DNA from: a virus
Lineage: Duplodnaviria; Heunggongvirae; Uroviricota; Caudoviricetes
Reading direction: 5' to 3' (one strand)
IMG/VR virus record: IMGVR_UViG_3300001605_000025
Location: 1-64,000 of that record
DNA length: 64,000 bases
Part shown: positions 3,833 to 63,622 of the stretch, one piece after another
Layout: the number at the start of each line of letters is the position of its first letter
Position numbering within the stretch: the first letter of the stretch is position 1
Translations under genes and position numbers: made by a program
The notes under the pieces: generated by a model
The model's database searches: none
What the model was told of the DNA's origin: nothing
The model's input: only the letters and a program-made list of their open reading frames with translations

Positions 3833-3870
3833 GTTTTCGTCTCTCCTGTTCAGGCCTTTCACCTGTGCTG

Positions 3871-3894
3871 CCCGGAAATGTTTCCGTTTCCGGG
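3871..3894. promoter_or_regulatory. intergenic hairpin (8-bp stem CCCGGAAA/TTTCCGGG, 8-nt loop)
   Basis: Perfect inverted repeat between the stop of 3912..4196 and the start at 3832. Confidence 0.3.
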
Positions 3895-3911
3895 TTTCAG
3901 CCAAATAAAGG

Positions 3912-4196
3912 TTATAAAGTAATAGGTACAGCTCTACCCTGTACAAATTTCATTGGTGGGGTTGCTCCCATTGCCTGGTCTATAGTATTCTTGATTATAA
4001 ATGCATCCTCTCTAGTGTTAGCTTTAAACACTATGTATCCTTCACCTACCACTTGGACTCTCCAATGATCGTAATGACTAACTCCATCATCAGGTGGAAA
4101 GATGATAATGGATTTTATTGCATCCACTCTCATCTGGTTGAAATTATGTCCGTTGTCAAACGCTATCATTCCAGTTGGTAATACTTCGATTTTCAT
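3912..4196 (-). CDS. hypothetical protein
   Basis: 94-aa ORF on the block strand. Confidence 0.45.
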   Translation of the reverse strand: MKIEVLPTGMIAFDNGHNFNQMRVDAIKSIIIFPPDDGVSHYDHWRVQVVGEGYIVFKANTREDAFIIKNTIDQAMGATPPMKFVQGRAVPITL

Positions 4197-12253: not shown

Positions 12254-12478
12254 ACTCTTAACCTCCTATATATTTTCATAAACCTTAATAACATTAATAA
12301 AAATTTAACATATAACTATCTATATTCTATATATATGGTCACCGTACATCATTACCACTAGTTGCAATGTTTTGCACAAGCTAGCACCGGAAATACTTAA
12401 GGAGTAGCCCGTTAGTCCGTCTACTCGAACGTTCCGTTTAAATATAGGCACGTCCCAAAAACTTTACCGGAGATACCA

Positions 12479-15978: not shown

Positions 15979-16085
15979 CTTCTTTTTAACTGTTGGTTGA
16001 ACAACCTCTCTCCGTGAACAACCCTCTTCATCTCTTGTCCCTCTTTTATATATAGGTTCGGATATACCAGTTCGTGGAGGTTCTA

Positions 16086-43722: not shown

Positions 43723-44355
43723 TTAGAATCTCTCCTTTAACGTTCTTCTTATCTGAATTGATTTCGCTGGACCAATTCCACGAACTCTCTGTAAATCTTT
43801 ATCTGGAACGTTTGCGATATTTGTTAAACAATTATGAGTCATCATTAATTGTGTCAGTTGTGCTGTTGAGATTCCAAGTAAACGTGCTGCCAGTATCGTG
43901 CGATCTCTTCTAACGGGAACATTATACTTTCCCTCATCAACTTTCTTCATGAACTTAACTAACGTGATCATACCTTCCCATTCGTTCTCTACCCATAACG
44001 GTTGAATACCGTACCGGCAGGCTATCGATGCGATCTCTCCGAAGAGAATATCTGGATCGATTGTTATCCCGATATCTCGCATATTCTTAACGTAAGGTGC
44101 TATAGCGCCTGTGATAAGCAGAATCTGGACTTTATCTTGGTGGACAGATATTCGTTCAATCTGATCGTGTATTCTACGATTAGGGCCTGTGATACTTCCA
44201 TACAAGTCTGCAATTGTCTTACGTTCAGCCAAACACCGTTCCGATTGGTAATCTCCTTCGTCTAGTTTAATCCTCCTGAACTTCATTTCCGGGAACTTCT
44301 TAGTTAAAAAGTCATAGTACTTTGGTGGCTCTCTTGTATCTACGTCGACTGGCAT
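43723..44355 (-). CDS. ERCC4/XPF-Mus81-Hef-type nuclease with C-terminal helix-hairpin-helix
   Basis: GDY...ERKTIADLYGSI is the ERCC4 signature GDxnERKx3D. C-terminal LQRVRGIGPAKSIQI is an HhH motif. Confidence 0.6.
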   Translation of the reverse strand: MPVDVDTREPPKYYDFLTKKFPEMKFRRIKLDEGDYQSERCLAERKTIADLYGSITGPNRRIHDQIERISVHQDKVQILLITGAIAPYVKNMRDIGITIDPDILFGEIASIACRYGIQPLWVENEWEGMITLVKFMKKVDEGKYNVPVRRDRTILAARLLGISTAQLTQLMMTHNCLTNIANVPDKDLQRVRGIGPAKSIQIRRTLKERF

Positions 44356-44594
44356 GGTATCGTTCCGCCTATCATTAGTTCCTCGTCACACCGTTTACAT
44401 CTACAGAGTACCTCGTAACGTACGGCTCCAACAATAACCTTCTTTAAAACAAAATCTGTAGGGTCCTCAGACCATATGCTAATTGGTTTCTCCATTATAT
44501 CACGATGAACTGTAACATCTAGAACGACCAGTTGATCAGCTGGATGTTTACAGTTTACTGCAGGATCTATTCCAACTATACTAGTTTCAGGCAC
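44340..44594 (-). CDS. hypothetical Cys-containing protein
   Basis: 84-aa ORF containing CRCKRC. Confidence 0.4.
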   Translation of the reverse strand: MPETSIVGIDPAVNCKHPADQLVVLDVTVHRDIMEKPISIWSEDPTDFVLKKVIVGAVRYEVLCRCKRCDEELMIGGTIPCQST

Positions 44595-44595
44595 G

Positions 44596-44811
44596 TTATC
44601 CCTCTCGGAAAACTTTTCGTTCTATCATCATTCGAATAGCTTCTAGTGCTGGAGATATCTCTACCCAGTCTCCAGAAAAATAGCTGGTTGGTAAGTTTGC
44701 TTTATCGCAATATGAATCAAACAGTTCAGACTTCTGCATCCATTCATGTTCTGTGTCCAGAAGCTCTAAAAATTGGACTAACGTTAGATTAGTTTCTTTC
44801 CCTTCCGACAT
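44596..44811 (-). CDS. hypothetical protein
   Basis: 71-aa ORF. Confidence 0.4.
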   Translation of the reverse strand: MSEGKETNLTLVQFLELLDTEHEWMQKSELFDSYCDKANLPTSYFSGDWVEISPALEAIRMMIERKVFREG

Positions 44812-45563
44812 ACCGACACCACGTCATGCTGATGAATTGATTCCTGATGTGTACAGACGACTACCCAATCTTCCATCCATCCATCGATCGTTGCACCGAT
44901 CACTCTTGAAGCATCCTCGACAAACAGATTCGTTCGGGCGGCTCGCTGACACCAATCTAGTTCGTCCGGTCTCTTCATCAACGGTATAGGAACAATGTCT
45001 ACCACTTCGATGATCCGTGCTACAATTGATGTCATTAGATCGTCCAGGTCCTCCTTCGGCGATAACAATCCAGTTACCTGTGCTAAAGCTCGCTGCATAT
45101 GAGGAACCCCTCCTTCTTGTTTCACCATTCTCATGGCACATGGGCACACACTCGCATACGGAACTTTCATAGTCAGATACCAATCTTCTTTATCGGGTAC
45201 ACGGACACCTTCTAACATACTATCTATAAAGATCAATTGTTCGTTCTCCATCTCATATGCTGCTGTCCAATTACATTCCCAGTAACTGTTAGTCGTTTCA
45301 TGTCCTTCAGCTAACGTTTCTAATAATTCTGAGTTCATATAAATCGGATCGTCCTCGTAATCTGTTAACGCATCAACTAATCGTGACATATGAACACCAG
45401 TCCGATCGATCAGATCAACATAAGCAGACTGACTTGTTAACGTTCGTCGTCCGCTAAAGTCTTGCATAAACTGTTTGAATCCTTTAATACCAACTTTCTC
45501 TAGTGGCATACCACCAGACGGACCTTCAGCATAGTCAGGTAACAATCGTACACATGAATCCAT
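44784..45563 (-). CDS. folE2: GTP cyclohydrolase I type 2 (FolE2/MptA family)
   Basis: AAGGAG SD before ATG at 45563 (track ORF trimmed). GVHMSRLV and SVCPCAM...PHMQRA match the FolE2 motifs (HMSR, CPC, HxQR). Confidence 0.7.
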   Translation of the reverse strand: MDSCVRLLPDYAEGPSGGMPLEKVGIKGFKQFMQDFSGRRTLTSQSAYVDLIDRTGVHMSRLVDALTDYEDDPIYMNSELLETLAEGHETTNSYWECNWTAAYEMENEQLIFIDSMLEGVRVPDKEDWYLTMKVPYASVCPCAMRMVKQEGGVPHMQRALAQVTGLLSPKEDLDDLMTSIVARIIEVVDIVPIPLMKRPDELDWCQRAARTNLFVEDASRVIGATIDGWMEDWVVVCTHQESIHQHDVVSVCRKGKKLI

Positions 45564-45564
45564 A

Positions 45565-45738
45565 CTACTGCTCCTTTGGGTTCTTCCAGTTACCAAATAC
45601 AGTCTCAAGAACAGCTGCTGAATATGGATGTGTATTACATGAATTATGAAGTAGCTGTTGGTCACAGCTTATAGCTCGTAACGCCTCTCCAATTGCATCT
45701 ACTTTCTGTTCAAGTCTTTTAAAGTCTTTAGTAGTCAT
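45565..45738 (-). CDS. small protein inside the deazaguanine cluster (57 aa, hand-called)
   Basis: TAATG overlap with the queE stop. Ends 2 nt before the folE2 start. Confidence 0.35.
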   Translation of the reverse strand: MTTKDFKRLEQKVDAIGEALRAISCDQQLLHNSCNTHPYSAAVLETVFGNWKNPKEQ

Positions 45739-46385
45739 TATCTCACCTTATACAGTACATGAAGTCTCGGGCTTACGGCTCCGTTAACTCCATATTCATC
45801 CATCATACGAATAATCTCACGAACCATTCTATTATGTTCCGTTATCATCGTATCGTCCTGGGGAGTCATCGGCATAAAGTACATTCTCACTTCAGAGTGT
45901 TCAGTTGCCCATTTCATCCACCATCTAATATTCTCATACCTAATAACTGGTTTAATAACTACATCTACTTCACAAATGTTAGTCCACAACGTTAATAGAT
46001 CGGTCAGTCCAGAAGTAGGTAGTTCACTATCTTTCGGACTAACAACTACCAGATCGAACGCAGCAACACCAAACGGTATCGTTCCATTCGTTTCGATAGC
46101 ATGTGTCATACCTAACGATTCAACTGAAGCGATCGTATCCTTTATCTCATCAACCTGGAGTCCAGGTTCTCCACCAGTCCAGACAACGTTCCTCACTCCT
46201 TTCTTATATGCTTTAGTAATCAGGCTTTTTAGTTCAGTCCGACTAACATTAATATACAGTGTTGCGTATTTCGTATCACAAAAAGGACAATGAAGATTAC
46301 AGCCCGATAGTCTTATAAACAACGACCGTACTCCAGCTTGTGGACCTTCACCCTGAATCGATATAAACGTTTCGTTTAGTCTCAT
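45738..46385 (-). CDS. queE: 7-carboxy-7-deazaguanine synthase (radical SAM QueE)
   Basis: FISIQGEGPQAGVRSLFIRLSGCNLHCPFCDTKY carries the CX3CX2C cluster motif and the QueE N-terminal signature. Confidence 0.85.
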   Translation of the reverse strand: MRLNETFISIQGEGPQAGVRSLFIRLSGCNLHCPFCDTKYATLYINVSRTELKSLITKAYKKGVRNVVWTGGEPGLQVDEIKDTIASVESLGMTHAIETNGTIPFGVAAFDLVVVSPKDSELPTSGLTDLLTLWTNICEVDVVIKPVIRYENIRWWMKWATEHSEVRMYFMPMTPQDDTMITEHNRMVREIIRMMDEYGVNGAVSPRLHVLYKVR

Positions 46386-49030: not shown

Positions 49031-50950
49031 TTATGAACATCCAGACCACCCGCATGTCATACACGTTCCGCTTCTACAACCCGAACCGAAACTAAGTACC
49101 GTCCCACATTGTGGACACTTATTCGTTACAATTTCAGATTCTGTAAACCAGAATGCATTCATTCGTTTCGCAAGAATATCCGGACAACTCTTTCCAGCAG
49201 AGTTTGGATTCTTCATTGCGGTAGTACACTCAACTTTCGATAGCGTCGATATGATCCGTTTAATCGTTGTCTTCTCATCACCATAGAGTCTCGGGTCATG
49301 TATATACTTGGAAATAACCTTCCCCATTCCTTCCATGTTAGCCTTACATCCGCCTTGCGTGAGAACATAAGCTTCGTATGGGTGATCGTCGGCGATGTTG
49401 TTATTGGTAGTAACGTGTATCTCGCCACACCCTGTGGGGAAGTCCAACGTTCTACCGTATCGTTCAACTCTGTCTCCTTTAGAGCTCGGTTGGCCTCTTC
49501 CTGGAATCGGTCCAGTAGGTCGAACAGATGTAAGTACCTGTTTATCTTTTGAACCATCTCGATACACCGTTATCCCTTTGCATTTCAGTTTCCAAGCTAA
49601 ATGTATCGCATCCTCAATATCCTGTACTGTAGCACTTGATGATAGATTAATCGTTTTTGATACAGCGTTATCAACATGGTTCTGCCAGGCAGCCATATGT
49701 TTCAACTGCCACTCTACAGATATATGCTTAGCTGTATCTTCTAGTAATCCATGTTGTCTTGCGAGATCGGTCAGTGGATGTTCGAGTGTTACAATTCCAG
49801 CTTCTGACTCTCGTGTGTACGTCCAGTCAAATACTGGTTCGATACCTGACGAACAATCTGCAAGGAAGGATAATGTTCCAGTTGGAGCAATCGTCATAAC
49901 TGTTTCGTTGTTATAGGTCCGTCCTGGAACTTCTCTCGTTGCAACATCATAGTACCTAGATCCAATCTTATCGATCAACTGAATCGCTTCTGTTGATTGA
50001 TAGCTGATACCCATTTTAATCAGTAAGTCAGCCCAACCCATAACACCGGATCCAATCTTTCTAGACAGTAATGTAGCCTCTCGTATCTCTGGTATCGGGA
50101 ACGTATTCAAATCAATAACATCGTTTAACGCTCGTACCGACAATCTTACCGTATCGTCAAGCATCCCGTAATCAAACGTCTCTCCTTCCGGTATCAGTTT
50201 ACTTAGATTGATAGACGCTAAATTGCACGACTCATACGGTCGTAACGGCTGTTCGCCACAAGGGTTCGTACAATCGATAACACCTCTCTCAGGAAACCGA
50301 TTCGTCTCGTTGAGTCTATCCAAAAATACGACACCGGGGTCTCCCGTTCTCCAGGCATGCTCTGCAATAGTGTGAACCAGTCCGTTATCGCTTTGCATAT
50401 CTGAGTCCTTGATCCCGACGCTAATATTGAAATGTGATAGTCCGGATCCACTATCTTTACAGTGTATAAACTCTTGGATGTCTGGATGATCAGCGTTAAG
50501 TATCCCCATATTGGCACCCTCGCGTTTACCTCCTTGGGATACCACACCGGCTGACTCGTTAAGCAATTCCATGACTTTAACAGGACCACATGCTTTCCCT
50601 TTAGTTGATTGTATAAGTGAGCCACGTGGTCTAAGTCTAGAGAAGTTGAAACCGGTTCCACCAAAGTACTTATGCACACGGGCGGCGTGCCAAACCGTTC
50701 TATATATTCCATCCAGTGAATCTTCCACTGGTAAGACGTAACACGCTGATAATCCTCCAGCTCCCGGTACGCCTGCATTAACAAGCGTCGGAGTGTTTGG
50801 CAACCAGATTCCGTGAGACATAGCATTGAGCAATGTTTCCGTGTACTTGCGATCCTCTCGTCCGATAAACTTTGCAACTCTCTCATATACATCACGTTCT
50901 GTTCTCTCTCCAGGTTGTAAATAACGATCCTTTAGTAGTTTCTCTTTCAT
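49031..50950 (-). CDS. nrdJ: ribonucleotide reductase, class II (adenosylcobalamin-dependent)
   Basis: Catalytic loop CTNPCGEQPL...CNLASINL and C-terminal Cys-rich tail CPQCG...CRSGTCMTCGWSGCS, typical of class II enzymes. 639 aa. Confidence 0.9.
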   Translation of the reverse strand: MKEKLLKDRYLQPGERTERDVYERVAKFIGREDRKYTETLLNAMSHGIWLPNTPTLVNAGVPGAGGLSACYVLPVEDSLDGIYRTVWHAARVHKYFGGTGFNFSRLRPRGSLIQSTKGKACGPVKVMELLNESAGVVSQGGKREGANMGILNADHPDIQEFIHCKDSGSGLSHFNISVGIKDSDMQSDNGLVHTIAEHAWRTGDPGVVFLDRLNETNRFPERGVIDCTNPCGEQPLRPYESCNLASINLSKLIPEGETFDYGMLDDTVRLSVRALNDVIDLNTFPIPEIREATLLSRKIGSGVMGWADLLIKMGISYQSTEAIQLIDKIGSRYYDVATREVPGRTYNNETVMTIAPTGTLSFLADCSSGIEPVFDWTYTRESEAGIVTLEHPLTDLARQHGLLEDTAKHISVEWQLKHMAAWQNHVDNAVSKTINLSSSATVQDIEDAIHLAWKLKCKGITVYRDGSKDKQVLTSVRPTGPIPGRGQPSSKGDRVERYGRTLDFPTGCGEIHVTTNNNIADDHPYEAYVLTQGGCKANMEGMGKVISKYIHDPRLYGDEKTTIKRIISTLSKVECTTAMKNPNSAGKSCPDILAKRMNAFWFTESEIVTNKCPQCGTVLSFGSGCRSGTCMTCGWSGCS

Positions 50951-51603
50951 AGTCTCATCACGTTACCGATGTAATCTTCGTCACGCTTTAAGTACAGATG
51001 TGGACAGAAACAAATATGTGTATACGTTCCAACCGGTAGTCCTACAGCTAACGATATATGTTTCTGTAACTCCGTTAGTCCATACATATTTGGACCTAGT
51101 CCCAGTGTCATATCCTCCGACCGGAATACAACTTTCATATTTAAACGTCCTTCTCTTACATCACAATGTATCAACTGTAAGCACGGAACGTCTTCACGAG
51201 TCGTATCCAATTTCGGATTCCATGTTATCGCTTGAGCTCGTCTAGTAGATGGTGACCCAATAAGTTTCTGTTCAATATACGTTATCTGGTTGATCCCAAA
51301 GTGATGCGTTAATCGATCGTGGTAATCGTAGACAAAGTCAGCAGACGTTCCCGCAATCAGATCGTTAGCATACTGATCCATATACTTCTGACTGAACGGT
51401 AGTGTGGGAGGTTTAATAAATCGTGGTTCCACAAACGGAGTTCTAATAAACAATGCTAGTTCTTTAGCCTCAATAGTATCCTGTTTGTTCTCTCCAGGAT
51501 ATACAATCGGGCATTCAGTCTCATCTTTATAACAATGGTTCATGATATACCGTATAACGATCTCATGACCTTTCGCTAAGTTAGGTGCTTGTAACAACTT
51601 CAT
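50947..51603 (-). CDS. thymidylate synthase family enzyme (ThyA-like; short form; substrate/product not resolvable)
   Basis: VPCLQLIHCDVREGRLNMKVVFRSEDMTLGLGPNMYGL is collinear with the ThyA core PCH..FQFYV..GKL..QLYQRS.D..LG.PFN. Confidence 0.8.
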   Translation of the reverse strand: MKLLQAPNLAKGHEIVIRYIMNHCYKDETECPIVYPGENKQDTIEAKELALFIRTPFVEPRFIKPPTLPFSQKYMDQYANDLIAGTSADFVYDYHDRLTHHFGINQITYIEQKLIGSPSTRRAQAITWNPKLDTTREDVPCLQLIHCDVREGRLNMKVVFRSEDMTLGLGPNMYGLTELQKHISLAVGLPVGTYTHICFCPHLYLKRDEDYIGNVMRL

Positions 51604-53975: not shown

Positions 53976-54113
53976 TCAGTTTACCTTTATAATTTCGTCT
54001 CCGTTTGATAATTTCTGTCCTACCTTTGGTTTAATTTTCATTACCGTTGTACTCAGTTTACCTTCTGGACTTCTAACAGATACAATCCATTTCGTCTGAG
54101 GTTTCCGTGTCAT
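53976..54113 (-). CDS. small basic protein (45 aa, hand-called)
   Basis: ATGA overlap with the dcd stop. Confidence 0.3.
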   Translation of the reverse strand: MTRKPQTKWIVSVRSPEGKLSTTVMKIKPKVGQKLSNGDEIIKVN

Positions 54114-54670
54114 GGTGTATTCTCGAAATAACGAGATCCCGTGGCTCCAGTCTGATCATGATATTTTGCGTCATGTTTCGAATAATACGGAACATTAGCG
54201 TGGTGTGTCTTATAAAAAACTAATTGAGCGATAGGCATCCCAGCTGTCAGAATGATAGAGCGCATATTCTCGTTCGTCATCTCTAAGGTAATTGTACCCC
54301 GGAATCCGCAATCCACCCATCCGCCAGTTTGATGTACAGTAATCCCTAATCTCGCTAACGAGCTTTTGCCTTCGATCGTCGCACATACTTCATCACTTAA
54401 CTCAATCCGTTCCATCGTTTCAGCTAGTAAGAATGAATTCTTCTCTAATGTTATCCGTTCAGCTGTAAAATGATGTAGACCAAGTTCTACTGATTCTTTA
54501 TCATATGGATCAATCGGATAGTTAAATGACTGGATATCATACACAGCAAAGTTATTACCTAGTCTAACATCAATACTATTCGACTGAATACCATTCTTAT
54601 ATAGTGGCAGTATCTTTATATCTCCACTTTCCAATAATCCGTTCAGTTGCCAATCAACCATTACGCTCAT
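54110..54670 (-). CDS. dcd: dCTP deaminase (dUTPase-fold)
   Basis: SSLARLGITVHQTGGWVDCGFRGTITLEMTN is the Dcd/Dut trimeric-fold signature. 186 aa. Confidence 0.85.
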   Translation of the reverse strand: MSVMVDWQLNGLLESGDIKILPLYKNGIQSNSIDVRLGNNFAVYDIQSFNYPIDPYDKESVELGLHHFTAERITLEKNSFLLAETMERIELSDEVCATIEGKSSLARLGITVHQTGGWVDCGFRGTITLEMTNENMRSIILTAGMPIAQLVFYKTHHANVPYYSKHDAKYHDQTGATGSRYFENTP

Positions 54671-61972: not shown

Positions 61973-63496
61973 TTACCCCGTTAAAAAAGTATAGTGTTCA
62001 ATATCCTTTAACATTGTTCCACGATCAGCTTCAAACATTGGAACAAACTTGAATACTGCATCGCTGTATCCACTAATCGGACATGTTAACGGATCCGACT
62101 CTGGAATCTTAAGTAGTCCGTAAGACGATACATCGAAACTATACAGTCTACAGTTCGGATTGACTTTCATCCTGTACTGTTTAAGCACATCCTGAACGTC
62201 ACTACCGTACCCGTAGCTATTATAGCACTGCATATCGGAGAACAAGAAGATCCGATCGTAGAACTGGTTCTTCGATAATATATCAGTTATTGCTAACCAA
62301 GCATTAGTAGAATGACCAACGTCAGTAGTAGCAACTTTCTGCATATTAGTAAGAATGCTGTCACGTTTAGATAACGGTACAGTCTTGTAAGTTTGTCCGA
62401 ACGCACCAACTGTTGCCTCCTCACATACATGTAACGAGATTGCACTGAACAGTGATGCGATATCAATGCACTGAACAGTACTCTTATCGGAAACGTCTGA
62501 ATGCATCGATCCACTGTTATCAGACGCAATAAATGTCTTGCCTGATATCCGTGGAACATTCTCAACGGATATAGTCATTGCATCGTTTATCGCATCCAGA
62601 ACTTTTGTAGGTCCACCTACCTCACGGTAAGCACTGAAGAACCTATAGGGGAACTGTTTACTTTTCCGTACAGCAACAGGATCCGTTAACCGCTTCAGAT
62701 AAAGATTCATATCAACATCATGCTTCTGGAAGTTTCTTAAGTTCCTCAGTAGCGCCATGTAGCCCATCTTTGGAATTACTTCCTCCCATGTCCTCTTAGA
62801 AGCACCGTTCTTCGAAATGTGAGTCTCCCAAGTAAACGGAGTCTCCAATGTTCCGTTGATAATCTTATCATACAGTACCTGTTGTTCTGCAGATTTCGGT
62901 TTCGGATGTGTCAGGAAGATAACATCTTTCAGTGTTACCTTTCCTTCACGATTATACTTCGCCAGCTGGTATTCATCAAACTGGTTTAACGCATCACTAA
63001 TACCCTTCTTTAGCATTCCAGGTATCGGAGCGAATGTCTTCGGTACATACTTCTTACCTTGAGCTTCAAGTGAGGCTTTCCGTTTCGCTTCTACTTCTGG
63101 GTTAATAGGTGACGACGCTAAAAAGTATGCTATCGCTTCTGCGGGTTCGTCAGCTCTCCGAAGAATACTTGAAACATATTTATACGCACCTTCCAGTTTA
63201 GTTCCAGCCTTAGCATACTCAACTAATAGAAACACAGGAACAGTTCTCAAGTACATTTCGTTCCGTGCATATGCCGCCAACTTCGGTACGTACTCAGGAT
63301 CGTTTACACTGATCCGTTTAACAAGATTCAGTATAGCATCGCTAGTCTGTTTCTCCTTCGTATAGTATGAGTCTCCAGACATCATAAACGACATCGTGTG
63401 GAGCATCAATGCTAACTTGTCAGAAGGCTTATACGCTTCCGCCCCCTCATAGTTAACGGGTTTCGTTCCGTTTGGTTTTGCATTAAATCTCGCCAT
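61973..63496 (-). CDS. rsr: Ro60-related TROVE domain protein with C-terminal vWA/MIDAS
   Basis: NYEGAEAY, GDSYYTKE, AAYARNEMYLRTVPVFLL, YMALLRNLRN, KQFPYRFFSAY, MIDAS FIASDNSGSM and DRIFLFSDMQ are collinear by eye with human Ro60 (LTALLRNLGKM, RIHPFHIL, LLAVDVSASM, DVFIVFTDNE). Confidence 0.85.
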   Translation of the reverse strand: MARFNAKPNGTKPVNYEGAEAYKPSDKLALMLHTMSFMMSGDSYYTKEKQTSDAILNLVKRISVNDPEYVPKLAAYARNEMYLRTVPVFLLVEYAKAGTKLEGAYKYVSSILRRADEPAEAIAYFLASSPINPEVEAKRKASLEAQGKKYVPKTFAPIPGMLKKGISDALNQFDEYQLAKYNREGKVTLKDVIFLTHPKPKSAEQQVLYDKIINGTLETPFTWETHISKNGASKRTWEEVIPKMGYMALLRNLRNFQKHDVDMNLYLKRLTDPVAVRKSKQFPYRFFSAYREVGGPTKVLDAINDAMTISVENVPRISGKTFIASDNSGSMHSDVSDKSTVQCIDIASLFSAISLHVCEEATVGAFGQTYKTVPLSKRDSILTNMQKVATTDVGHSTNAWLAITDILSKNQFYDRIFLFSDMQCYNSYGYGSDVQDVLKQYRMKVNPNCRLYSFDVSSYGLLKIPESDPLTCPISGYSDAVFKFVPMFEADRGTMLKDIEHYTFLTG

Positions 63497-63538
63497 AACA
63501 CTTCTCCAGTATTAGGTATTCGGACTTCGGTACTTAAC

Positions 63539-63619
63539 GGTAACGGGTGGGAGTTGAACCCACACTGACTATCATCGTACTTGTCAGCTCCACCATGTAC
63601 GACAGGGCAATTCCGTTAC
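63539..63619 (-). ncRNA. tRNA-like element A (no canonical anticodon loop)
   Basis: Perfect 7-bp acceptor stem GTAACGG/CCGTTAC and canonical T arm GTGGG-TTCAACT-CCCAC. The middle folds instead as CTGAC-13 nt-GTCAG or TCGTAC-16 nt-GTACGA. There are 4 nt, not 2, between the acceptor and a D-like stem. Confidence 0.45.
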
Positions 63620-63622
63620 CAA

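What the first reader, a model, noticed from the sequence alone, without database searches (positions are those of the whole stretch)
63539..63619. tRNA-like element with perfect acceptor stem and T arm but no anticodon loop
The acceptor stem GTAACGG/CCGTTAC (7/7) and the T arm GTGGG-TTCAACT-CCCAC are canonical. A D-like segment (CATGGTGGAGC) resembles the usual TGGTAGAGC.

The position of the anticodon arm is instead occupied by a stem with a 13-nt loop, or alternatively by a 6-8 bp stem with a 16-nt loop. No U33-NNN-purine loop can be drawn.

The element ends 42 nt before the Ro60 start codon and is flanked by a tandem TAACGG TAACGG motif.

tRNA mimicry without decoding capacity is what Ro-associated Y RNAs of the YrlA type show. 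That makes this element the best local candidate for a Ro partner.
Basis: partly seen in the sequence, partly recalled or inferred. Interest (0 to 1): 0.55.

Follow-up and report, generated by a model that had tools for sequence, protein, structure and literature searches.

The report
Conserved tRNA-like RNA beside viral Ro60
A small tRNA-shaped RNA gene with no anticodon loop lies just upstream of a viral Ro60 gene; it is real and conserved, but the clearer Ro60 partners are its neighbours, Y-RNA-like elements that include complete tRNA genes carrying a built-in Ro60-docking stem.

Summary
The element is real. It lies on the minus strand at 63620..63538. It has an 8-bp acceptor stem, a canonical T arm, a 6-bp stem with a 13-nt loop, and no anticodon loop. 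No tRNA finder accepts it.

One homologue was found, in a virus whose Ro60 gene is 67.5% identical at the nucleotide level. It has the same length and nine compensatory base-pair changes across the three helices. The unpaired core and the loop are 36/38 identical. This is a selected, structured RNA, not a decaying tRNA.

It is not a YrlA-type RNA. It lacks the Ro60-binding stem–internal loop–stem module and has normal tRNA topology, not the permuted one.

That module was defined here from 40 copies (5' strand UGGCGWA-G, which fits GNCGAAN0-1G; an 8-bp covarying helix; WUACUUC; 3' strand GAUUGUUCC). In the window it occurs in two places:
- a stand-alone hairpin at 63932..63862;
- a circularly permuted copy inside a complete tRNA-Gly(UCC) gene at 63753..63623.

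About 22 such tRNA–Y chimeras occur beside Ro60 genes in 16 loci. One is the haloarchaeal virus HGTV-1 gene annotated as "tRNA + intron".

The flagged element is most likely a processed, non-decoding tRNA mimic that closes this RNA array and marks the 5' end of the Ro60 mRNA. Direct Ro60 binding is not excluded.

The parts
63538..63620 (-). The flagged tRNA-like RNA ('F'): 8-bp acceptor stem, conserved unpaired core, hairpin with a 13-nt loop, T arm and discriminator G.
   Evidence: Sequence. MFE fold -29.7 kcal/mol, z = -2.1. Homologue L094 2948-3030 with 9 compensatory pairs. Model R2 gives 114 bits. Not called by ARAGORN or by the Rfam tRNA model.
63589..63612 (-). Conserved single-stranded core of F, AAUUGCCCUGUCGUACAUGGUGGA. 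It contains GUCGUAC, a possible pseudoknot strand, and UGGUGGA, which resembles the 5' strand of the Ro60-binding loop.
   Evidence: One change with respect to L094 in the unpaired stretch of 25 nt, while the helices change with compensation. Duplex with the loop is -10.3 kcal/mol; 2.7% of shuffled loops do as well.
63564..63588 (-). Middle hairpin of F: stem GCUGAC/GUCAGU and 13-nt loop AAGUACGAUGAUA. It occupies the place of an anticodon arm.
   Evidence: 3 compensatory pairs in the stem. The loop is 12/13 identical to L094.
63547..63563 (-). T arm of F, GUGGG-UUCAACU-CCCAC.
   Evidence: Matches the T arm of the tmRNA and tRNA models. 2 compensatory pairs with respect to L094.
63511..63528 (-). 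Conserved Ro60 leader box GAAGUCCGAAUACCUAAU, 9-10 nt after the discriminator of F.
   Evidence: Single copy in the window. Present at the same distance after the last tRNA(-like) element in 10 of 12 related loci.
61973..63496 (-). Ro60 gene (507 aa).
   Evidence: Pfam TROVE and vWA_Ro60. More than 4000 homologues; 19 of them at 50-67% identity.
63623..63753 (-). tRNA-Gly(UCC) gene with a 59-nt insertion between G26 and the anticodon stem. The insertion is a circularly permuted Ro60-binding module.
   Evidence: 7/7 acceptor stem GUGACUG/CAGUCAC, T arm, and anticodon arm UUCGC-CUUCCAC-GCGAG. After excision in silico, standard ARAGORN calls tRNA-Gly(UCC) in 23 of 24 variants. ARAGORN -i calls it an intron-containing tRNA.
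63666..63714 (-). The embedded module, in order: helix-2 3' strand CUGUAAAC, loop strand GGUUGUACC, closing hairpin CUUAAGAGAG, loop strand UGGCGUA, helix-2 5' strand GUUGACAG, box UUACUUC.
   Evidence: Parsed by script. Same architecture as about 21 other chimeras.
63862..63932 (-). Stand-alone Y-RNA-like hairpin: GAUUGGA | UGGUAAA | GUUAACGG | UUACUUC ... CCGUUAAC | GAUUGUUCC | UCCAAUC.
   Evidence: Fold z = -3.96; 0/200 shuffles fold as well. R1 gives 52.4 bits, E 3e-11, and this is the only hit in the 64-kb window. This copy was in the training set.
63766..63854 (-). Structured spacer element 'B', closed by GUGACAGGU/ACCUGUCAU. It contains a hairpin with GUACGAU in its loop, like F. Its nature is unknown.
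   Evidence: Inverted repeat I13 and direct repeats D6 and D7 with F. Fold z = -0.84, so not significant on its own.
63953..64000 (-). 3' part of a tRNA-His(GUG) gene with the same kind of insertion, cut by the end of the window.
   Evidence: Rfam tRNA 34.5 bits, truncated. The full gene is at L001 5422-5545. ARAGORN calls His(GUG) after excision.

Best explanation
The element is the gene of a small, non-decoding tRNA mimic. It is the last unit of a co-transcribed array of Ro60-associated RNAs (Y-RNA hairpins, YrlA-like RNAs, tRNAs and tRNA–Y chimeras) that runs into the Ro60 gene.

Shown:
- It has a tRNA acceptor/T-arm minihelix.
- In place of the D and anticodon arms it has a conserved 24-nt core and a hairpin with a conserved 13-nt loop.
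- Its helices are maintained by compensatory changes.
- It lacks the Ro60-docking module that its neighbours carry.

Inferred:
- The minihelix makes it a substrate of RNase P at its 5' end and of RNase Z or the CCA-adding enzyme at its 3' end.
- Cutting it out releases the neighbouring tRNA-Gly/Y chimera.
- The same cut creates the 5' end of the Ro60 mRNA, 9-10 nt upstream of the conserved leader box.
- The released RNA persists as a stable tRNA-shaped molecule. Its invariant core and loop bind a specific partner, which is not identified here.
For: Structure and selection:
- 9 compensatory pairs in 3 helices against L094; 0/500 shuffles reach the observed value; slid controls give 0-1.
- The unpaired core and the loop are 36/38 identical. 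The two Ro60 genes are 67.5% identical at the nucleotide level, and the helices differ freely.

Not a decoding tRNA.

Not a module carrier: R1 gives 1.2 bits.

Array context:
- The 1.1 kb upstream of Ro60 in the extended contig L001 holds six stand-alone modules (two of them YrlA-like), two tRNA chimeras, the unclassified element B and F.
- There are no called genes in this stretch.
- There is no intrinsic terminator on the Ro60 strand, and promoter-like sites are no more frequent than in shuffles.

Positional rule:
- In 11 of 12 related loci the last T arm ends 45-58 nt before the Ro60 start codon.
- In 10 of 12 the discriminator is 9-12 nt before the GAAGUCCG box.
- This holds whichever kind of element is last: a true tRNA (Cys, Lys), a chimera (Arg, Thr, Gln) or a tRNA-like RNA.

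Precedent (PMC4201824):
- D. radiodurans Yrn2, tRNA-Asp and Yrn1 are made as one precursor upstream of rsr.
- M. smegmatis YrlA, which has a 7-bp acceptor-like stem, is cut by RNase P and receives CCA.
- D. radiodurans RNAs a and b carry T arms but bind Rsr less strongly.
Against: - Only one independent homologue was found, so the covariation rests on two sequences.
- Processing, expression and stability are all inferred; no RNA data were available.
- Near-invariance of the core and loop is more than a mere processing signal needs. The function proposed for the released RNA is therefore open.
- The core contains UGGUGGA, then 8 nt, then GUAC. This is the spacing of the Ro60-binding 5' strand, which fits the rival of direct Ro60 binding.
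- The proposed pseudoknot has no covariation support, because both of its strands are invariant.
Confidence: 0.5

Rival explanations
1. F is itself a Ro60 ligand of a hybrid kind. It would be a stand-alone Ro60-binding module in which the acceptor stem plays the terminal helix. UGGUGGA(G) would be the 5' strand of the binding loop, and GCUGACAA/UAGUCAGU the 8-bp second helix. A real T arm would replace the 3' loop strand GAUUGUUCC.
For: - The layout UGGUGGA, then 8 nt, then GUAC has the module's exact spacing. UGGUGGA occurs as the loop strand in a bona fide module, L005_886.
- The 8-nt stretch can pair 7/8 with UAGUCAGU in the window copy (read from the sequence).
- The 'G-type' last elements of L085, L092 and L096 place UGGUGGA directly after the acceptor 5' strand and a T arm before the 3' strand.
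- Ro60 contacts mainly the 5' strand (Stein 2005, as cited in PMC4201824).
- D. radiodurans RNAs a and b, which have T arms, bind Rsr less strongly than Yrn1.
Against: - R1 gives no score for F (1.2 bits, E 5.6).
- Three positions that are invariant in the 5' half of the 40 modules (G21, U26, C28 of alignment A2) are not kept in F.
- 17 extra nucleotides separate the acceptor stem from UGGUGGA.
- In L094 the extended helix pairs only 5/8.
- The pattern taken alone is expected tens of times by chance in 128 kb. This is my own estimate from the degeneracy of the pattern.
Confidence: 0.25
2. F is not released. It stays attached as a structured 5' cap of the Ro60 mRNA. It would be a cis-acting leader element that protects the mRNA from 5' exonucleases, or couples Ro60 translation to some ligand, together with the GAAGUCCGAAUACC box.
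For: - Fixed spacing of 9-12 nt between the tRNA-like 3' end and the leader box in 10 of 12 loci.
- No terminator and no convincing promoter between F and the start codon.
- The box is unique to this position in the window.
Against: - In relatives the same position is filled by ordinary tRNAs (L091 Cys, L005 Lys), which are normally excised.
- An acceptor/T minihelix is the classical substrate of RNase P and RNase Z (general knowledge). M. smegmatis YrlA is cleaved at such a site (PMC4201824).
Confidence: 0.12
3. F is a decaying tRNA pseudogene left over in a tRNA cluster, with no function of its own.
For: - It lies in a cluster of tRNA genes.
- tRNA finders reject it.
Against: - Nine compensatory changes keep all three helices.
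- The non-helical parts are 36/38 identical between viruses whose Ro60 genes are 67.5% identical.
- That pattern is the opposite of neutral decay.
Confidence: 0.04
4. F is an unusual but functional decoding tRNA, for example Sec-like with an 8/5 acceptor/T stack, or one with an expanded anticodon loop.
For: - tRNA-Sec is the best Rfam match, at 29.4 bits.
- The acceptor stem of the window copy has 8 bp.
Against: - The score is below the gathering threshold of 47.
- There is no 7-nt loop with U33, and no UCA.
- The eighth pair is G·A in L094.
- The 13-nt loop is conserved as sequence, not as an anticodon context.
- There is no D arm.
Confidence: 0.03

Closest known systems
YrlA (Y RNA-like A) of Salmonella, Mycobacterium and mycobacteriophages (Chen et al. 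2014, PMC4201824; Wang et al. 2018, bioRxiv 10.1101/312249)
   Same: - A tRNA mimic without decoding function.
- Encoded within 4 kb of Ro60 on the same strand.
- Canonical T arm.
- Part of a multi-RNA precursor.
   Different: - YrlA has a terminal stem with GNCGAAN0-1G, and a closed acceptor-like hairpin between the T and D arms; it is a circularly permuted tRNA. F has an open acceptor stem, no such terminal stem and no D arm.
- YrlA-like units do exist in this phage, but outside the window (L001 5186-5312 and 5319-5420).
Simple Y RNAs: YrlB, D. radiodurans Yrn2, and Thermus phage phiLo Yrl1/Yrl2 (PMC4201824; PMC12135203)
   Same: The hairpin at 63932..63862 has their stem – internal loop with a CGAA-type motif – stem design. 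It lies upstream of a phage Ro60 gene.
   Different: - F itself does not have this design.
- The window hairpin has a degenerate motif (UGGUAAAG against GNCGAAG).
- Here there are six stand-alone modules plus two embedded ones per genome, against two reported Y RNAs in those species.
D. radiodurans RNAs a and b, and the Yrn2–tRNA-Asp–Yrn1 polycistron (PMC4201824)
   Same: - Small RNAs with T arms encoded upstream of rsr.
- They lack the canonical Ro60-binding stem and bind Rsr less strongly.
- tRNAs and Y RNAs are made from one precursor.
   Different: - No sequence relationship was tested.
- F has a full acceptor stem and a conserved core.
tRNA-like processing signals (mascRNA from MALAT1; tRNA punctuation of mitochondrial transcripts)
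   Same: - An acceptor/T-arm mimic without a working anticodon arm.
- Placed so that its excision defines the end of a neighbouring transcript.
   Different: - Eukaryotic or organellar systems with no homology. The mascRNA model scores only 19 bits, and on the neighbouring chimera, not on F.
- Processing of F is inferred, not shown.
Circularly permuted and intron-containing tRNA genes of archaea and algae
   Same: The neighbouring chimeras are complete tRNAs interrupted by 50-80 nt. The HGTV-1 copy is annotated as 'tRNA + intron'.
   Different: - The insertion lies at 26/27, not at 37/38.
- There is no consistent bulge-helix-bulge motif.
- The insertion is a conserved Ro60-binding module, not a variable intron.

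Membership tests
Canonical tRNA (Rfam RF00005) | 7-bp acceptor stem and a 5-bp T stem with a 7-nt UUCRANY loop | tested here: met
   GGUAACG(G)/(C)CGUUACC and GUGGG-UUCAACU-CCCAC. Both covary with L094.
Canonical tRNA (Rfam RF00005) | 5-bp anticodon stem with a 7-nt loop (U33, purine 37), and a D arm | tested here: not met
   The only stem in that place has a 13-nt loop, and no D stem can be drawn. ARAGORN standard, intron and low-threshold modes do not call it.
Canonical tRNA (Rfam RF00005) | Score at or above the family gathering threshold | tested here: not met
   No RF00005 hit on 63538-63620 even at E<=10. tRNA-Sec scores 29.4 bits against 47.
YrlA-type Y RNA | 5'/3' terminal stem with an internal loop carrying GNCGAAN0-1G (the Ro60/Rsr binding site) | tested here: not met
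   Model R1, built from 40 local modules, gives 1.2 bits, E 5.6. Only a look-alike of the 5' strand (UGGUGGAG) is present.
YrlA-type Y RNA | Permuted order: T arm, then a closed acceptor-like hairpin, then the D arm, with the anticodon stem replaced by the Ro60-binding stem | tested here: not met
   F has normal tRNA order: acceptor 5' strand, core, hairpin, T arm, acceptor 3' strand.
YrlA-type Y RNA | Encoded within about 4 kb of Ro60, on the same strand | tested here: met
   42 nt upstream of the Ro60 start, on the same strand.
YrlA-type Y RNA | Bound by Ro60/Rsr in vivo or in vitro | not testable with these tools
   Needs a gel shift or immunoprecipitation.
Ro60-binding Y-RNA module (for the neighbours at 63932..63862 and 63714..63666) | Helix 1, then internal loop (UGGCGWA / GAUUGUUCC), then an 8-bp helix 2, then WUACUUC, next to Ro60 on the same strand | tested here: met
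   - 40 units: 94.8% of cells paired, with 0/500 shuffles reaching that value.
- Helix 1, which was not used for selection, is 93% paired. Helix 2 pairing was a selection criterion.
- 49 of 49 R1 hits lie on the Ro60 strand. 21 of them are in 19 loci that were not used for training.
- Two hits lie upstream of the Caulobacter phage CcrColossus TROVE gene. Y-RNA-like RNAs were reported in that phage (PMC12135203, citing Chen 2014).
Archaeal intron-containing tRNA (for the neighbouring chimeras) | Bulge-helix-bulge motif at the exon-intron borders | tested here: not met
   3-4-3 motifs compatible with the insertion are absent in 5 of 18 chimeras. Where present they are not at homologous positions. 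They are no more frequent than in shuffled sequences.
tmRNA / tRNA-like domain | Score at or above the gathering threshold; a tag reading frame | tested here: not met
   Only the 17-nt T arm matches RF00023 (14.8 bits against 47). ARAGORN tmRNA mode finds nothing.

The most novel reading that the evidence does not exclude
The locus shows a continuum between tRNA and Y RNA that has not been described in the papers I could search.

(a) Complete, canonical tRNA genes (Thr, His, Gln, Gly, Arg, Cys) carry a circularly permuted Ro60-docking module between position 26 and the anticodon stem. These would be 'un-permuted YrlAs' that bring Ro60 onto a real tRNA body. They are conserved from these viruses to the haloarchaeal virus HGTV-1.

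(b) F and the related 'last elements' are intermediates. In them a real T arm stands where the 3' strand of the Ro60-binding loop normally lies, so F would be a new kind of Ro60 ligand.

If this is true, the Ro60-binding site of prokaryotic Y RNAs is itself a collapsed tRNA elbow.
Probability: 0.2. Interest if true: 0.8.

Novelty: new variant of a known kind. Interest (0 to 1): 0.6.

Why it matters
Ro60 and its Y RNAs are conserved from bacteria to humans. What the tRNA-like domain of bacterial Y RNAs does, and where it came from, is still unknown.

This locus offers three things:
- a compact natural series in one 1.1-kb array: plain Y hairpins, YrlA-like RNAs, true tRNAs with an embedded Ro60-docking stem, and a tRNA mimic without one;
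- a sequence and structure definition of the docking module that finds it next to Ro60 genes in many unrelated metagenomic contigs;
- a reinterpretation of a published "tRNA intron" in an archaeal virus.

The chimeras make one idea directly testable: that Ro60 is targeted to tRNAs or to tRNA-handling enzymes during infection.

For the flagged element itself the gain is smaller. It is a new, narrowly distributed tRNA mimic whose conserved loop and core point to an unidentified partner.

Tried and rejected
- **DNA similarity.** The locus has no match in the phage collection. F has no match in IMG/VR.
- **Protein-based locus search.** IMG/VR gave nothing. Close relatives therefore had to be fetched one at a time.
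- **Sigma-54 promoter.** I considered this reading of the repeated TGGC..N..ACGG motif. I rejected it because the GG-to-GC spacing does not fit, and the motif is one strand of a covarying helix.
- **Archaeal-type intron.** I rejected this reading of the insertions because there is no consistent bulge-helix-bulge motif.
- **tRNA-Sec, tmRNA and mascRNA.** All score below threshold.
- **RNA target for F's conserved core or loop.** The best duplex is with the apical loop of Y unit u3 (L001 5102-5125, -23.6 kcal/mol). It has no counterpart in L094 and is within the background of the scan.
- **Wider F family.** Model R2 found only two copies. Its other hits are ordinary tRNAs.
- **Rfam.** No prokaryotic Y-RNA family reached threshold on these loci.
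- **Papers.** The supplementary alignments of Chen et al. 2014 and two reviews were not available.

Full report
**1. What is at the coordinates**

Everything relevant is on the minus strand. The ORF 61973..63496 (-) is a Ro60 orthologue, with TROVE at 2e-30 and vWA_Ro60 at 3e-10.

The flagged element ('F') spans 63620..63538:
- an 8-bp acceptor stem, GGUAACGG/CCGUUACC;
- a 24-nt unpaired core, AAUUGCCCUGUCGUACAUGGUGGA;
- a 6-bp stem, GCUGAC/GUCAGU, with the 13-nt loop AAGUACGAUGAUA;
- a canonical T arm, GUGGG-UUCAACU-CCCAC;
- the discriminator G.

It exists and is about isoenergetic with the other one (-26.2 against -25.5 kcal/mol). The two could coexist as an H-type pseudoknot.

No tRNA finder accepts F.
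- ARAGORN finds no tRNA in the whole window.
- With introns allowed and thresholds lowered it still does not call F.
- The Rfam tRNA model gives nothing. tRNA-Sec reaches 29.4 bits against a threshold of 47.

**2. F is under selection**

The same phage occurs on a 74.9-kb contig (L001), which extends the window. Among Ro60 proteins at 50-67% identity, I fetched 13 loci.

One of them, L094 (Ro60 63% identical by BLASTP; genes 67.5% identical in DNA), has an element of identical length at the same place.
- In the alignment all three helices differ, through nine compensatory double substitutions: acceptor stem 4, middle stem 3, T stem 2.
- 92% of cells are paired. 0 of 500 shuffles reach the observed value. 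Slid controls give 0-1.
- The unpaired core has one change in 25 nt, and the loop one in 13 (36/38 identical).

That is the signature of a functional structured RNA whose single-stranded parts are read as sequence. It excludes a decaying pseudogene.

A covariance model of the pair (R2) finds only these two copies in 594 kb of Ro60 loci. A pattern scan of IMG/VR found none. The family is narrow. The covariation supports the stem with the 13-nt loop. The alternative 7-bp pairing involves two invariant segments and cannot be tested this way.

**3. The surroundings: an array of Ro60-associated RNAs**

The 1.1 kb upstream of Ro60 in L001, and the 0.6-1.5 kb gene-free stretches upstream of Ro60 in the relatives, are filled with a repeated RNA module.

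A script parsed it in 11 loci. The module has these parts, in order:
- helix 1, of 3-8 bp;
- a 7-nt loop strand, U(G/A)G(C/U)G(A/U)A, usually followed by G;
- helix 2, always 8 bp;
- the box (A/U)UACUUC;
- a variable apical part;
- the 3' strand of helix 2;
- a 9-nt loop strand, GAUUGUUCC;
- the 3' strand of helix 1.

On 40 trimmed copies, 94.8% of cells pair and 0/500 shuffles reach that value. Helix 2 pairing was a selection criterion, so that part of the figure is partly circular. Helix 1 was not selected for, and it is 93% paired, with changes on both sides in all 4 of its pairs.

A covariance model (R1) gave three results.
- It finds exactly one stand-alone copy in the 64-kb window, at 63931..63863 (52.4 bits). 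That copy was in the training set.
- It gives 49 hits in 90 Ro60 loci, all on the Ro60 strand. 21 of them are in 19 distant loci that were not used for training.
- It gives two hits upstream of the TROVE gene of Caulobacter phage CcrColossus.

The 5' loop strand plus the following G (GGCGAAG or GGCGUAG) fits the GNCGAAN0-1G motif, and UUAC fits the YUAY motif. Chen et al. 2014 describe both for YrlA and YrlB (PMC4201824). The stem – bulge with CGAA – stem design is the one shown to bind a phage Ro60 (PMC12135203).

Some units have an apical T arm followed by a hairpin, which is the YrlA topology (for example L001 5186-5312 and 5319-5420, and L089 2305-2430). Others are plain hairpins, like YrlB.

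I therefore read the module as the Ro60-docking site. This rests on motif identity and genomic association, not on a binding test.

**4. tRNA genes that carry the module**

In about 22 cases in 16 loci the module is circularly permuted and sits inside a tRNA gene. The order is:
- acceptor 5' strand, D arm, N26, and a short A-rich linker;
- helix-2 3' strand, GAYUGUUCC, and helix 1 closed by a loop;
- UGGCGWA, helix-2 5' strand, and WUAC;
- UUCGN as the anticodon stem, a 7-nt anticodon loop, a variable loop of 4-5 nt, the T arm, and the acceptor 3' strand.

All 19 caught by the strict script have a T arm about 40 nt after the box and a 7/7 acceptor stem. A looser pass added more.

The Rfam tRNA model spans two of them across the insertion, at 45 and 39 bits. 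After the insertion is removed in silico, standard ARAGORN calls a canonical tRNA in 19 of 20. The types called are Thr UGU, His GUG, Gln UUG, Gly UCC, Arg GCG, Cys GCA and Ser GCU.

The window holds one complete chimera, at 63753..63623. It is called tRNA-Gly(UCC) in 23 of 24 excision variants. The window also holds the 3' part of a tRNA-His chimera, at 64000..63953.

The same construction occurs in distant Ro60 loci (L015, L017, L079). It also occurs in Halogranum tailed virus 1. There, GenBank annotates 'tRNA-Asp (gtc) + Intron' 3 kb upstream of the TROVE gene. A 2026 paper on that virus simply notes one intron-containing tRNA (PMC13532342).

The insertions have no consistent bulge-helix-bulge motif, so the archaeal-intron reading is not supported.

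I found no description of such chimeras in the searchable literature. Wang et al. 2018 discuss YrlA as a permuted tRNA, and a possible origin from dimeric tRNAs.

**5. What F is, and how it probably works**

F does not carry the module. R1 gives 1.2 bits. F has normal tRNA topology, not the YrlA one. It is therefore not a YrlA-type RNA, and it is not the best Ro60 partner in the window.

Three lines point to a role in processing.
- F is the last unit before Ro60. No terminator lies on that strand anywhere in the array, and promoter-like sites are no more frequent than in shuffles.
- In 11 of 12 related loci the last T arm ends 45-58 nt before the Ro60 start codon. In 10 of 12 the discriminator lies 9-12 nt before a conserved leader box, GAAGUCCG(R)AUACCUAAU. 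This holds whether the last unit is a true tRNA, a chimera or a tRNA-like RNA. The box is single-copy in the window.

From this I infer that the acceptor/T minihelix of F is cut by RNase P and RNase Z. That cut would release the neighbouring chimera and define the 5' end of the Ro60 mRNA.

The invariant core and loop imply an additional, sequence-specific partner for the released RNA. I cannot name it.

A partial resemblance to the 5' strand of the module (UGGUGGA, 8 nt, GUAC) keeps direct Ro60 binding alive as a rival. So do the related 'G-type' last elements of L085, L092 and L096, where UGGUGGA follows the acceptor strand directly. I put that rival at 0.25.

**6. Host and virus**

The window is a tailed virus, with a tail tube protein, a 2379-aa ORF that is presumably the tape measure, and a distant terminase. 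It has no close relative in the phage collection.

Several features are typical of archaeal tailed viruses.
- Its family-B DNA polymerase matches haloarchaeal tailed viruses best; all of the top 15 hits are such viruses, at 25-28% identity.
- Its Ro60 is closest to that of HGTV-1 (32.6%).
- Relatives encode MCM helicases.
- The window encodes an ERCC4/XPF nuclease.
- TTTAWATA boxes lie 29-42 nt before two ORFs, and at the head of the RNA arrays of L089 and L091.

The host is unproven. The conclusions about F do not depend on it.

**7. Verdict**

F is a new, narrowly distributed member of the loosely defined group of T-arm-bearing small RNAs encoded next to Ro60. The more notable result lies beside it: a sharply defined Ro60-docking module, and a conserved class of tRNA genes that contain it.

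Noticed in passing
window 63623-63753 (-); also L001 5422-5545, L085 3430-3556 and 3662-3796, L086 3397-3523 and 3704-3827, L087 3807-3950, L089 2104-2231 and 2436-2573, L015 4500-4622, L079 622-747: Complete tRNA genes interrupted between position 26 and the anticodon stem by a circularly permuted Ro60-binding Y-RNA module. There are about 22 in 16 loci, all next to Ro60 genes. After excision in silico, standard ARAGORN calls canonical tRNAs.
   Followed up: yes
L100 (Halogranum tailed virus 1, KC292026) 983-1114: The gene annotated 'tRNA-Asp (gtc) + Intron', 3 kb upstream of the viral TROVE gene, has the same insertion. It ends in UGGAAGCG-UUAC|UUCG, with an 8/8 partner strand and a closing hairpin. 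Its anticodon-like arm is not canonical. A divergent stand-alone module lies just before the TROVE start (about 3855-3945).
   Followed up: partly
window 63511-63528 (-): Conserved Ro60 leader box GAAGUCCGAAUACCUAAU. It is single-copy in the window and lies at a fixed distance after the last tRNA-like element in relatives. It contains AGUCCGA, a 6/7 match to the GGUCCGA contacted by Xenopus Ro60 (as quoted in PMC4201824). It could be an autoregulatory Ro60 site.
   Followed up: partly
window 63766-63854 (-): Element B, a stretch of about 89 nt closed by GUGACAGGU/ACCUGUCAU. It shares GUACGAUG-GUCAG and CCUGUC(A/G)UAC with F, and CAGAGGUAAAG..ACCUC with L089 (about 2775). Its loop can pair 8/9 with the core of F. 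Its nature is unknown, and its fold is not significant on its own.
   Followed up: partly
L085 3868-3957, L092 about 474-590, L096 about 676-749: A second type of 'last element' before Ro60: GUGAGAU-GGUGGACGCACC..., then a T arm, then AUCUCAC. The UGGUGGA motif follows directly after the acceptor 5' strand. It is preceded by a conserved GACGGGUAGGRGUAUCCCUYGUUAACUGAC segment.
   Followed up: no
alignment A2 columns 7-14; chimeras such as L086 3404-3411: Variants of the module's 5' loop strand (UGGUGUAG, UAGUGUAG) are identical to positions 8-15 of the chimeras' own tRNA bodies (U8-G15, UGGUGUAGUGG...). This hints that the Ro60-binding loop derives from the tRNA D region.
   Followed up: no
L094 2455-2545, L095 909-1005: Stand-alone Y units whose apical part contains an anticodon-arm look-alike, with the loop CUUUGGA (Gln UUG), but no T arm or acceptor stem.
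   Followed up: no
window 43723-46385 (-), 50947-51603 (-), 54110-54670 (-): Genes for ERCC4/XPF nuclease, GTP cyclohydrolase FolE2 and a radical-SAM protein (possibly 7-deazaguanine synthesis), a thymidylate-synthase-like protein and dCTP deaminase. Together with the PolB and Ro60 affinities, they suggest an archaeal-type tailed virus.
   Followed up: partly
window 12437-12444 and 16045-16053 (+); L089 about 1755, L091 about 1915: TTTAWATA boxes 29-42 nt upstream of ORF starts and at the head of the RNA arrays (cgtaaYgTTTATATA). They resemble archaeal TATA/BRE promoters.
   Followed up: no
L001 5102-5125 against window 63589-63606 (-): The apical loop of Y unit u3 (CUUCACCACUGUACGAAG) is nearly complementary to the conserved core of F (-23.6 kcal/mol). 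No counterpart exists in L094, and the value is within the scan background.
   Followed up: yes
L002 and L004 position 1 (= window about 63655): Two independent assemblies of the same phage break about 159 nt upstream of Ro60, just upstream of the T arm of the tRNA-Gly chimera. This is probably an assembly break at repeated tRNA-like sequence.
   Followed up: no
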